This document shows, one piece after another, positions 58,218-58,790 of a DNA stretch of 58,790 bases. Below the pieces are notes generated by a model, which was not told the DNA's origin, ran no database searches, and saw only the letters and a program-made list of their open reading frames with translations. The stretch lies in the sequence record MW929182; one strand, written 5' to 3'. The position numbers were made by a program, and so were the translations under genes. This DNA is from Escherichia phage FS2B. Numbering within the stretch: position 1 is the first letter of the stretch; each line of letters begins with the position of its first letter.

Positions 58218-58790
58218 TTACCACTCGTAACTTACACCAGCGCCCAGAACAGCGTCACTCTCTGAAGTCATTGCCACTGATGCTTTAGTTACTACGTTTT
58301 CATTGAAACGAGCACTAACACCAATAGCAAGAGCAGATTCACCATCGTAAGCACCTACCCCAGCACCAACAGAGAAAGCAGATCCTTGACTTACTTGCGG
58401 GATGTTAGCCATTGCAGCCACGCCAGAAATACCAGCAGAGGCATGATCACGGTTACGGTCTACTTGTTTTTGCAAAGAAGCAAAACGTTTGTTGGTGGAT
58501 TGTTCCAGAGCTTTGATAGATTTGGCGTTAGCATTAACGGCAGACATATCTGCATCTTTACCGTTTTTGCCATTTAATCCGTCAACGCCATTCAAACCTG
58601 CTGCACCAGTTAGGCCAGTTTCGCCTTTCTTACCATCTGCACCAGAATCACCTTTTTCACCTTGAGCGCCTTGTTCTCCATCAATGCCATCTTTACCATC
58701 AATGCCATCTTTACCATCAATGCCATCTTTACCATCAATGCCATCTTTACCATCAATGCCATCTTTACCATCAATGCCATCTTTACCATC
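58218..58790 (-). CDS. collagen-like (Gly-X-Y) repeat protein with YadA-anchor-like C-terminal domain, 5'-truncated by window edge
   Basis: Frame is open to the window end; hand translation of 58596..58790 gives (GIDGKD)n then GEQGAQGEKGDSGADGKKGETG; C-terminus AGISGVAAMANIPQ...GAGVSYEW resembles trimeric autotransporter anchors. Confidence 0.5.
   Translation of the reverse strand, partial: DGKDGIDGKDGIDGKDGIDGKDGIDGKDGIDGKDGIDGEQGAQGEKGDSGADGKKGETGLTGAAGLNGVDGLNGKNGKDADMSAVNANAKSIKALEQSTNKRFASLQKQVDRNRDHASAGISGVAAMANIPQVSQGSAFSVGAGVGAYDGESALAIGVSARFNENVVTKASVAMTSESDAVLGAGVSYEW
58677..58790 (-). repeat. tandem 18-bp direct repeat (at least 6 copies, continues beyond the window)
   Basis: Unit CCATCAATGCCATCTTTA repeated head-to-tail on the plus strand; in frame it encodes GIDGKD repeats on the minus strand. 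Confidence 0.8.

What the first reader, a model, noticed from the sequence alone, without database searches (positions are those of the whole stretch)
58218..58790. Collagen-like repeat protein with YadA-anchor-like C-terminus at the window edge
The minus-strand gene continues beyond the window. Its visible part encodes Gly-X-Y repeats produced by an 18-bp tandem DNA repeat, then a helical stalk and a C-terminus (AGISGVAAMANIPQ...GAGVSYEW) resembling the beta-barrel anchor of trimeric autotransporter adhesins. In a phage this is unusual: it could be a host-surface-displayed protein made during infection, or a fibre whose C-terminal domain acts as a trimerisation/chaperone module. The repeat is also a likely site of copy-number variation.
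Basis: partly seen in the sequence, partly recalled or inferred. Interest (0 to 1): 0.55.

Follow-up and report, generated by a model that had tools for sequence, protein, structure and literature searches.

The report
Phage-encoded collagen-stalked trimeric autotransporter adhesin
The window ends inside a gene of a phiEco32-like coliphage that encodes a small outer-membrane adhesin of the YadA type, with a collagen-like rod of variable length; databases have annotated this gene since 2008, but its role in a lytic phage has never been tested.

Summary
Window 58218-58790 (minus strand) is the 3' 190 codons of a gene cut by the window end. It contains a perfect 18-bp tandem repeat (6.3 copies, encoding GKDGID), 26 uninterrupted Gly-X-Y triplets, a roughly 50-residue helix, and a full-length YadA_anchor domain (Pfam 70.6 bits against a cut-off of 22.7). 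The predicted fold matches only the solved trimeric autotransporter (TAA) anchors Hia, AtaA and YadA.

The window is a Kuravirus (phiEco32-like) phage, and the gene is the orthologue of phi32_119. Full-length orthologues start with a classic Sec signal peptide. The gene lies in the leftward non-structural cluster, about 40 kb from the tail and lysis genes, and is bracketed by terminators in a variable accessory slot. It is therefore a host-surface-displayed mini-TAA, not a tail fibre.

Repeat copy number ranges from 0 to at least 9 units among sequenced relatives, and several assemblies break inside the array. Similar signal-peptide-bearing TAAs occur in 80 phage records from unrelated virulent lineages. 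GenBank called the gene 'agglutinating adhesin' in 2008, and a 2013 paper noted it. So it is already known at the annotation level, while its function during lytic infection remains untested.

The parts
58218..58790 (-). 3' part (190 codons plus stop) of the phage trimeric-autotransporter gene, orthologue of phiEco32 phi32_119 / Bas90_0117. The 5' end (signal peptide, Cys-containing tip, further Gly-X-Y triplets) lies beyond the window.
58678..58790 (-). Perfect 18-bp tandem repeat (GATGGTAAAGATGGCATT on the coding strand), 6.3 copies, encoding (DGKDGI)n. It is cut by the window end, so the true copy number is unknown.
   Evidence: copy number 0 to >=9 in relatives
58554..58787 (-). Collagen-like region: 26 uninterrupted Gly-X-Y triplets (residues 2-79 of the visible part), proline-free and rich in Lys/Asp/Glu.
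   Evidence: (PF01391, 56.7 bits)
58407..58553 (-). Alpha-helical stalk (residues 80-128) leading into the barrel. It contains the motif AGISGVAAMANIPQV (residues 119-133, running 5 residues past this segment), most positions of which are invariant or nearly invariant among homologues.
58221..58400 (-). YadA-type membrane anchor (residues 131-190): four predicted beta-strands ending in ...GVSYEW, with a C-terminal aromatic residue.
58193..58210 (-). G+C-rich hairpin (CCTCTCCC-GAAA-GGGAGGGG) followed by a T-rich tail, 8 nt after the stop codon. It is a likely intrinsic terminator closing the cassette.
   Evidence: MFE -19.6 kcal/mol, z -2.67; same element in Bas90

Best explanation
This is the C-terminal two-thirds of a minimal trimeric autotransporter adhesin (type Vc secretion) encoded by a virulent phiEco32-like coliphage. 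It is made inside the infected cell, not built into the virion.

Shown or directly readable:
- Full-length orthologues carry a Sec signal peptide (MKAIVLSSILALSVMASPVFA|KS).
- After the signal peptide comes a roughly 28-residue tip with two cysteines.
- Next is a proline-free, charge-rich Gly-X-Y run whose length is set by an 18-bp tandem repeat.
- Then come a helical stalk and a canonical four-strand YadA anchor ending in an aromatic residue.

Inferred from what is established for TAAs:
- The protein crosses the inner membrane through Sec.
- Three anchors are assembled by BAM into a 12-stranded barrel.
- The three passenger chains thread out through the barrel and zip into a coiled coil and then a collagen-type triple helix.
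- The result is a rod of roughly 10-30 nm, depending on repeat number, that presents the small disulfide-bonded tip beyond the LPS layer.

The gene is an accessory cassette in a terminator-flanked variable slot of the non-structural, leftward-transcribed cluster.

The biological role is inferred and untested. I think it most likely remodels the surface of the infected cell. It could mask the O-antigen/LPS receptors against superinfecting or sister phages, or make infected cells stick to neighbours or surfaces. Repeat expansion and contraction would tune the reach of the rod.
For: - Domain and fold: YadA_anchor scores 70.6 bits over the whole profile. Sequence matches to the YadA anchor 2lme (E 7e-9) and to Hia run to the last residue. 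The AF2 model has a helix plus four strands at pLDDT 81-88. The only Foldseek PDB hits with E<=0.001 are TAA anchors: Hia, AtaA and YadA, with target TM 0.66-0.83.
- Signal peptide: it is present in all complete Kuravirus orthologues, including a second, divergent N-terminal variant in EcP-vB. It is also present in six TAAs from unrelated virulent phages. A crude heuristic finds it in 20 of the 21 ORFs extracted from IMG/VR loci that are not cut by a contig end.
- Location: in Bas90 the structural and lysis genes lie at 1-28 kb on the + strand, while this gene lies at 67.9-68.8 kb on the - strand. That is the cluster PMC8948821 describes as early/host-takeover.
- Cassette behaviour: the slot is empty in WFI101126 and holds an HTH gene in SGF2. 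Two terminators lie upstream and one downstream.
- Selection: among Kuravirus alleles pS is 0.01-0.07 against pN 0-0.006. dN/dS is 0.21 against the N4-like FSL SP-058 homologue. Both N-terminal variants keep the signal peptide, two Cys and an unbroken Gly-X-Y run.
- Not host DNA: there is no match in 5,426 E. coli genomes, and GC is 0.45 against 0.42 for the window.
Against: - No expression or localisation data were accessible. The phiEco32 proteome and transcription papers (Savalia 2008, Pavlova 2012) are not in the library.
- No convincing promoter precedes the gene. Two terminators lie just upstream. The gp36-promoter-like TACTGTATA is a one-mismatch hit, and such hits occur at chance frequency (20 observed, 17.5 expected). 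It also degrades to two mismatches in EcP-vB.
- A proline-free Gly-X-Y run has not been shown here to form a stable triple helix. The AF2 monomer model is uninformative for that part (pLDDT below 50).
- A homologue in Yersinia phage fHe-Yen8-01 is annotated 'phage particle associated protein'.
- The proposed biological role (exclusion or aggregation) rests on analogy only. PADLOC gives no hit.
Confidence: 0.8

Rival explanations
1. It is a virion tail fibre or tail protein. The collagen-like rod is a fibre shaft and the C-terminal domain serves only as a trimerisation or chaperone module.
For: - The best PHROG hit is phrog_26246, 'tail protein' (E 8e-81), and many collagen-like tail-fibre PHROGs match the Gly-X-Y part.
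- RefSeq and Bas90 name the gene 'tail protein'.
- The fHe-Yen8-01 homologue is annotated 'receptor binding protein / phage particle associated protein'.
- Collagen-like repeats are common in phage fibres (own knowledge; prophage collagen-like proteins of E. coli O157, PMC3368898, listed).
Against: - A cleavable Sec signal peptide sends the protein out of the cytoplasm, where virions assemble.
- The C-terminal domain is a full YadA membrane anchor with a terminal aromatic residue, and no fibre or chaperone Pfam domain is found.
- The gene is about 40 kb from the tail genes, on the opposite strand.
- Most kuraviruses lack it. Only 14 of 99 matching records cover at least 80% of the query, and the slot is empty in WFI101126.
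- The BASEL paper describes Kuravirus host recognition by long and short tail fibres, based on the solved SU10 virion, without mentioning this protein.
- Outer-membrane debris co-purifying with virions would explain a mass-spectrometry hit.
Confidence: 0.06
2. It is a passively carried gene captured from an enterobacterial host. It has no role in lytic infection, or it acts only as a transferable bacterial virulence or adhesion gene.
For: - Small TAAs of about 200 aa with roughly 60% identical anchors exist on enterobacterial chromosomes. One in Cedecea neteri lies between flagellar operons and not in a prophage.
- The gene is dispensable within the genus.
- Moreno Switt et al. listed it as a putative virulence gene.
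Against: - Purifying selection acts within Kuravirus and between Kuravirus and N4-like phages.
- The composition has been ameliorated to the phage: GC3 is 0.25 and GC is 0.45.
- There is no close E. coli counterpart.
- The gene sits at the same position, next to dUTPase, in N4-like phages of Salmonella and of Erwinia.
- It recurs in 80 records of many virulent lineages.
- These phages are virulent, so there is no lysogen to benefit from it.
Confidence: 0.08
3. It is a lysis or envelope-breaching accessory. A phage beta-barrel inserted massively into the outer membrane, working with the adjacent SleB-like cell-wall hydrolase, weakens the envelope.
For: - The next gene downstream (57718-58107) has a Hydrolase_2 domain at 32 bits, cut-off 27.
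- The protein is targeted to the outer membrane.
Against: - A complete holin/endolysin cassette and an Rz-like spanin are annotated elsewhere in the Bas90 genome.
- The hydrolase gene is kept in kuraviruses whose slot is empty or holds an HTH gene, so the two genes are not linked.
- A terminator separates the two genes.
- A long collagen passenger of variable length has no obvious use in lysis.
Confidence: 0.04

Closest known systems
YadA / Hia / AtaA-type trimeric autotransporter adhesins (type Vc secretion)
   Same: It has an N-terminal Sec signal peptide (in orthologues) and a helical stalk. The C-terminal YadA_anchor has a helix plus four strands and a terminal aromatic residue. Sequence and fold matches to 2lme, 2gr7/3emo and 9vnj support this.
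   Different: It is very small, at 196-262 aa. No YadA head, neck or stalk-repeat domains are detected. The passenger is a collagen-type Gly-X-Y run. It is encoded by a virulent phage. NCBIfam full-length models for YadA and BimA are matched only at the anchor and far below their cut-offs.
Eib immunoglobulin-binding TAAs of E. coli, carried on lambdoid prophages (own knowledge: Sandt and Hill 2000/2001; EibD structure, Leo et al. 2011)
   Same: They are phage-borne trimeric autotransporters displayed on the host surface.
   Different: Eib genes act by lysogenic conversion from temperate prophages and have coiled-coil Ig-binding passengers. This gene sits in a strictly lytic podovirus, has a collagen-like passenger, and has no DNA match in complete E. 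coli genomes.
Bacterial collagen-like surface proteins (streptococcal Scl1/Scl2, Legionella Lcl, Bacillus BclA)
   Same: They have charge-stabilised Gly-X-Y rods with little or no hydroxyproline. The rod length varies by tandem repeat number, and the rod projects a terminal domain from the cell surface. There are domain-level hits to the Scl1, Scl2 and Lcl models and to BclA 1wck.
   Different: They are anchored by LPXTG sortase or by other means, not by a YadA barrel. All NCBIfam scores are far below the family cut-offs.
Collagen-like phage tail fibres (for example prophage collagen-like proteins of E. coli O157, PMC3368898; PHROG collagen-like tail-fibre families)
   Same: They are Gly-X-Y repeats in a phage gene, and this similarity is the source of the 'tail protein' annotation.
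   Different: Those proteins lack signal peptides and end in fibre domains. This protein has a signal peptide and an outer-membrane anchor and lies outside the structural module.
'Agglutinating adhesin' / YadA homologues of other virulent phages (FSL SP-058/076, vB_EamP-S6 gp046, GAP32 gp424, SKML-39 gp201, Hena1 gp235)
   Same: They share the same anchor (45-66% identity), a signal peptide, and a location outside the tail modules. The FSL SP-058 group also has a collagen-like passenger of 44 triplets. Moreno Switt et al. 2013 discussed them together with phiEco32.
   Different: Most others have long coiled-coil repeat passengers of 320-580 aa instead of collagen. Their genomic contexts differ: next to dUTPase in N4-like phages, and among tRNA genes in Hena1.

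Membership tests
Trimeric autotransporter adhesin (type Vc) | C-terminal YadA-like membrane anchor domain at the extreme C-terminus | tested here: met
   PF03895 scores 70.6 bits (cut-off 22.7) over profile positions 1-60 of 60 and ends at the last residue. phmmer matches YadA 2lme and Hia to the last residue.
Trimeric autotransporter adhesin (type Vc) | Anchor protomer consists of a pore-traversing helix followed by four beta-strands | tested here: met
   The AF2 model has a helix at 75-128 and strands at 139-148, 151-161, 166-175 and 180-188, with pLDDT 81-88. Foldseek hits with E<=0.001 are only Hia, AtaA and YadA anchors. This is a prediction, not a solved structure.
Trimeric autotransporter adhesin (type Vc) | N-terminal Sec signal peptide | tested here: met
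   It is not visible in the window because the gene is cut. It is present in orthologues that are 98-99% identical over the shared part: MKAIVLSSILALSVMASPVFA|KS and the variant MKAFALSAILVLSAISAPSFA|HS. It was judged by n/h/c-region inspection and the -3/-1 rule, since no SignalP run was available.
Trimeric autotransporter adhesin (type Vc) | C-terminal aromatic residue / beta-signal for BAM (G-x-x-aromatic-x-aromatic) | tested here: met
   The sequence ends G-V-S-Y-E-W. Among the nearest 50%-identity cluster representatives, 144 of 147 end in W, F or Y. The motif definition comes from own knowledge.
Trimeric autotransporter adhesin (type Vc) | Obligate homotrimer forming a 12-stranded barrel, with the passenger exported to the cell surface | not testable with these tools
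   Only monomer prediction was available. This needs heat-modifiability on SDS-PAGE, protease shaving or immunofluorescence.
Trimeric autotransporter adhesin (type Vc) | Head/neck/stalk passenger modules (YadA_head, YadA_stalk, Hep_Hag, HIM); typical but not obligatory | tested here: not met
   No such Pfam family is reported at E<=0.1. The passenger is collagen-like plus a plain helix.
Collagen triple-helix repeat proteins | Long uninterrupted Gly-X-Y run | tested here: met
   There are 26 triplets in the window and 12-37 in full-length Kuravirus orthologues. PF01391 scores 56.7 bits against a cut-off of 27.2.
Collagen triple-helix repeat proteins | Actual formation of a stable triple helix | not testable with these tools
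   The Kuravirus-type run has no proline. The AF2 monomer is uninformative, with pLDDT below 50. This needs CD melting or trypsin resistance of the recombinant passenger.
Phage tail fibre / tail protein | Encoded in the structural (late) module and lacking an export signal | tested here: not met
   The gene is on the opposite strand, about 40 kb from the tail genes, and a signal peptide is present.
Phage tail fibre / tail protein | Fibre-type C-terminal domain (intramolecular chaperone Peptidase_S74, fibre tip or collar domains) | tested here: not met
   Pfam reports only Collagen and YadA_anchor, and there are no fibre structures among the significant fold matches.
Phage tail fibre / tail protein | Presence in purified virions | not tested
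   The phiEco32 proteome paper is not held. The only hint is the 'particle associated' annotation of the fHe-Yen8-01 homologue.

The most novel reading that the evidence does not exclude
Signal-peptide-bearing mini-TAAs may be a widespread, functionally uncharacterised class of infection-phase surface-remodelling factors of virulent phages of Enterobacterales. They occur in Kuravirus, N4-like, jumbo, Ackermannviridae, Vequintavirinae and FelixO1-like phages. In the Kuravirus version, slippage in an 18-bp repeat would tune a collagen rod of 10-30 nm to the depth of the host's O-antigen layer. The rod would block superinfecting phages or glue the infected cell to fresh prey.
Probability: 0.3. 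Interest if true: 0.6.

Novelty: already known. Interest (0 to 1): 0.3.

Why it matters
Lytic phages are usually thought to change the host envelope only to exclude rivals or to lyse the cell. A bona fide bacterial adhesin is maintained under purifying selection in many unrelated virulent phages, which suggests a surface function during the short infection window that nobody has tested. In practical terms:
- The 'tail protein' label now propagated by automated annotation is very probably wrong.
- The 18-bp array breaks short-read assemblies, so genome ends and 'partial' genes at this locus are artefacts.
- Phage-therapy safety screens may flag this gene as a virulence factor.

Tried and rejected
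- gp36 (phage sigma) promoter upstream of the gene. TACTGTATA lies 14 nt before the ATG, but one-mismatch matches to tAATGTAtA occur at chance frequency (20 observed, 17.5 expected). The element has two mismatches in EcP-vB. I dropped it as evidence.
- Sigma-70 promoter scan of the orthologous upstream region. Nothing was found on the gene strand near the start, only two terminators.
- Host or prophage origin. A distant blastn of the non-repeat part against 5,426 complete E. coli genomes found no match.
- Defence or exclusion system membership. PADLOC gave no hit.
- Named TAA equivalogs. NCBIfam gave only sub-threshold, domain-level hits to YadA, BimA, Scl1/2 and Lcl.
- Functional linkage with the neighbouring SleB-like hydrolase. 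I rejected this because the hydrolase is retained when the slot is empty or holds another gene.
- Literature. The phiEco32 proteome and transcription papers (PMC2587145, PMC3275717) are not held. The SU10, Kuravirus-taxonomy and BASEL papers do not mention the protein. There is no paper on fHe-Yen8-01. The 2026 global TAA preprint does not mention phages or collagen.
- The cyanophage 'YadA domain-containing structural protein' literature was not used as evidence for virion association here. The paper does not show that those proteins carry the membrane anchor, and I did not test them.

Full report
**What is in the sequence**

On the minus strand the reading frame is open from the window edge (58790) to a TAA stop at 58218-58220.

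- Tandem Repeats Finder finds an 18-bp array at 58678-58790 with 6.3 copies, 100% identity and score 226.
- All six complete units are GATGGTAAAGATGGCATT, encoding DGKDGI.
- The array is part of 26 uninterrupted Gly-X-Y triplets that contain no proline and many Lys/Asp/Glu.
- Pfam reports two domains: Collagen (56.7 bits, cut-off 27.2) and YadA_anchor (70.6 bits, E 1e-19, cut-off 22.7). The YadA_anchor match covers the whole 60-position profile and ends at the last residue.
- phmmer against PDB sequences aligns the last 90 residues with the YadA membrane anchor 2lme (E 7e-9) and with Hia, right to the terminal ...EW.

An AlphaFold2 model was built on 24 homologues. The collagen part is uninformative, as expected for a monomer (pLDDT below 50). 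The model gives a helix at residues 75-128 and four strands at pLDDT 81-88. The only Foldseek hits in the PDB with E<=0.001 are the anchors of Hia, AtaA and YadA, with target TM 0.66-0.83.

**Where the window comes from, and the missing 5' end**

The region is 99.6% identical to Escherichia phage MN03, 99.4% to SkaterBoy_Bas90 and 99.0% to phiEco32, all Kuravirus (Gordonclarkvirinae). The gene is the orthologue of phi32_119 / Bas90_0117.

The annotated TTG starts of those records run through two intrinsic terminators. The credible start is the ATG of MKAIVLSSILALSVMASPVFA|KSGNNGNGNGGCGVGQSTNGCGIGDWFK..., which is a textbook Sec signal peptide followed by a short tip with two cysteines. A second N-terminal variant (EcP-vB, P0002, P0029) differs in sequence but again has a signal peptide, two cysteines and an unbroken Gly-X-Y run.

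The DNA is not host DNA. A distant blastn of the non-repeat part finds nothing in 5,426 complete E. coli genomes. GC is 0.45, against 0.42 for the window, with GC3 at 0.25.

**Repeat variation and an assembly artefact**

Among sequenced relatives the number of GIDGKD units varies as follows:

| Phage | GIDGKD units |
|---|---|
| KM01 | 0 |
| EK5 | 1 |
| phiEco32 | 2 |
| phiEc_1 | 4 |
| Ec3-ASingh | 5 |
| Bas90 | 7 |
| PGN6866 | at least 9 |

This gives 12 to 34 Gly-X-Y triplets, which corresponds to rods of roughly 10-29 nm at 0.286 nm per residue. The records of MN03 and PGN6866 end inside the array, and ShigP1 has a run of N there. Two IMG/VR contigs end inside the homologous gene. The truncation at the window edge is therefore most likely an assembly break at the repeat. 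It is not a biological end.

**Genomic setting**

In Bas90 the head, tail-fibre, holin and endolysin genes lie at 1-28 kb on the plus strand. This gene lies at 67.9-68.8 kb on the minus strand, among many small genes of unknown function. PMC8948821 describes this leftward cluster as the early, host-takeover class. I could not read the primary macroarray data, so the 'early' assignment is inferred from position.

The gene occupies a variable slot:

- In WFI101126 the two upstream terminators are followed directly by the next gene.
- In SGF2 and 172-1 the slot holds an XRE-like HTH gene. That cassette shares the 5' leader and still carries the last 22 nt of the adhesin ORF and its terminator.
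- In this window, and in 14 of 99 matching records, the slot holds the adhesin.

A hairpin terminator follows the stop codon at 58193-58210 (MFE -19.6 kcal/mol, z -2.67). I found no convincing promoter.

**Is the gene functional?**

Over the last 140 codons, Kuravirus alleles differ mostly synonymously (pS 0.01-0.07, pN 0-0.006). Against the homologue in the N4-like Salmonella phage FSL SP-058, dN/dS is 0.21. The motif AGI(A/S)GVAAMANIPQV and the anchor glycines are conserved across 24 homologues, at most positions invariantly or nearly so.

**Distribution**

tblastn finds the anchor in 80 phage records: Kuravirus, N4-like Schitoviridae, jumbo phages, Ackermannviridae, Vequintavirinae, FelixO1-like phages and others.

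- All six that I extracted have Sec-type signal peptides and end in W.
- A crude heuristic finds a signal peptide in 20 of the 21 ORFs extracted from IMG/VR loci that are not cut by a contig end.
- Collagen-type passengers recur in the FSL SP-058 group (44 triplets) and in 14 of the 147 nearest 50%-identity cluster representatives.
- In every representative hit the match ends at, or within a few residues of, the C-terminus.
- Small chromosomal TAAs with about 60% identical anchors exist in Cedecea and Enterobacter. The Cedecea neteri one is not in a prophage.

**Mechanism**

Shown here: the domain architecture, the fold prediction, the signal peptide in orthologues, the non-structural location, the cassette behaviour, the repeat polymorphism and the purifying selection.

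Inferred from established TAA biology (own knowledge: Linke et al. 2006; Hia and YadA anchor structures): Sec export, BAM-dependent assembly of a 12-stranded trimeric barrel, and export of the three passenger chains through the pore. The chains would then fold into a coiled coil and a collagen-type triple helix, possibly stapled by the N-terminal cysteines. The product would be a length-variable rod on the surface of the infected cell.

Speculative: what the rod is for. My preferred guess is masking of the O-antigen/LPS receptors, which kuraviruses use according to the BASEL paper, or clumping of infected cells with neighbours. Repeat number would tune the reach of the rod.

**Rivals**

- Virion fibre. 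This rests on PHROG and RefSeq names and on one 'particle associated' annotation in a Yersinia phage. It is contradicted by the signal peptide, the membrane anchor, the location and the dispensability within the genus. The Kuravirus tail-fibre picture drawn from the SU10 virion structure also does not include this protein.
- Passive passenger. This is contradicted by the selection and by the conserved position next to dUTPase in N4-like phages of two host genera.
- Lysis accessory working with the adjacent SleB-like hydrolase. This is contradicted by the separate late lysis cassette and by the hydrolase being kept without the adhesin.

**Novelty**

The phiEco32 gene was deposited in 2008 as 'agglutinating adhesin' (EU330206). 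Moreno Switt et al. 2013 noted yadA homologues in phiEco32 and in FSL SP-058/076, and remarked that the FSL SP-058/076 genes are not near tail genes. The finding is therefore a correct rediscovery of an annotated gene.

Several points are, as far as the held literature shows, not written up:

- the signal peptide and the corrected start;
- the collagen-TAA architecture;
- the repeat polymorphism;
- the terminator-flanked slot;
- the breadth of signal-peptide-bearing TAAs in virulent phages.

None of these changes the kind of thing this is. The function during lytic infection remains an open and testable question.

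Noticed in passing
window 57718-58107 (-): The gene directly downstream encodes a 129-aa protein with a SleB-like cell-wall hydrolase domain (Pfam Hydrolase_2, 32 bits, cut-off 27; phrog_12974). It has no signal peptide and no obvious Shine-Dalgarno sequence at the right spacing. It lies far from the late holin/endolysin cassette. It is conserved in kuraviruses whether or not they carry the adhesin.
   Followed up: partly
orthologous slot in L002 7405-7545, L011 3009-3654, L012 3009-3222; window side 58108-58217: This is a variable accessory slot behind two intrinsic terminators. 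It is empty in WFI101126, holds an XRE-like HTH gene in SGF2/172-1, and holds the adhesin here. A short leader (TCTAYTRTATAGGAA) is conserved in front of whichever gene is present. SGF2 keeps the last 22 nt of the adhesin ORF as a remnant.
   Followed up: partly
window 58790 (edge); L003, L010, L008, L026, L028: At least four other public records or contigs end inside this gene, two of them shown to end in the collagen repeat itself, and one more has Ns in the repeat. The 18-bp array therefore systematically breaks short-read assemblies and creates false genome ends and 'partial' adhesin genes.
   Followed up: yes
window 58082-58213 (-): A 43-aa ORF, annotated in phiEco32 and Bas90 as a hypothetical protein (phi32_118), overlaps the terminator hairpin of the adhesin gene. 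It is probably not a real gene.
   Followed up: no
window 53807-54025, 56057-56272, 56286-56501, 56501-56749, 56742-56972, 56978-57220 (all -): Six small ORFs of 72-83 aa in the non-structural cluster are paralogues. They are 19-30% identical to the first sequence and share the pattern L..L..GDVF...LY...DG..CVNL.SG.V. Their function is unknown.
   Followed up: partly
window 54234-54533 (-) and 54553-54628 (-): The ORF begins MSWGGVISLICIFLVCIALTGC, which is a lipobox-like signal. A gene at the corresponding position next to the tRNA in phiEco32 is annotated 'putative phage lipoprotein', though I did not verify orthology. This would be a second envelope-targeted product of this cluster. It sits next to the phage's single tRNA-Arg(TCT).
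   Followed up: no
L016 1332-2306 (Yersinia phage fHe-Yen8-01): A 324-aa homologue with a signal peptide and a YadA anchor is annotated 'receptor binding protein; phage particle associated protein'. I could not find the basis for this, and it conflicts with the export signal. It may reflect outer-membrane contamination of virion preparations.
   Followed up: partly
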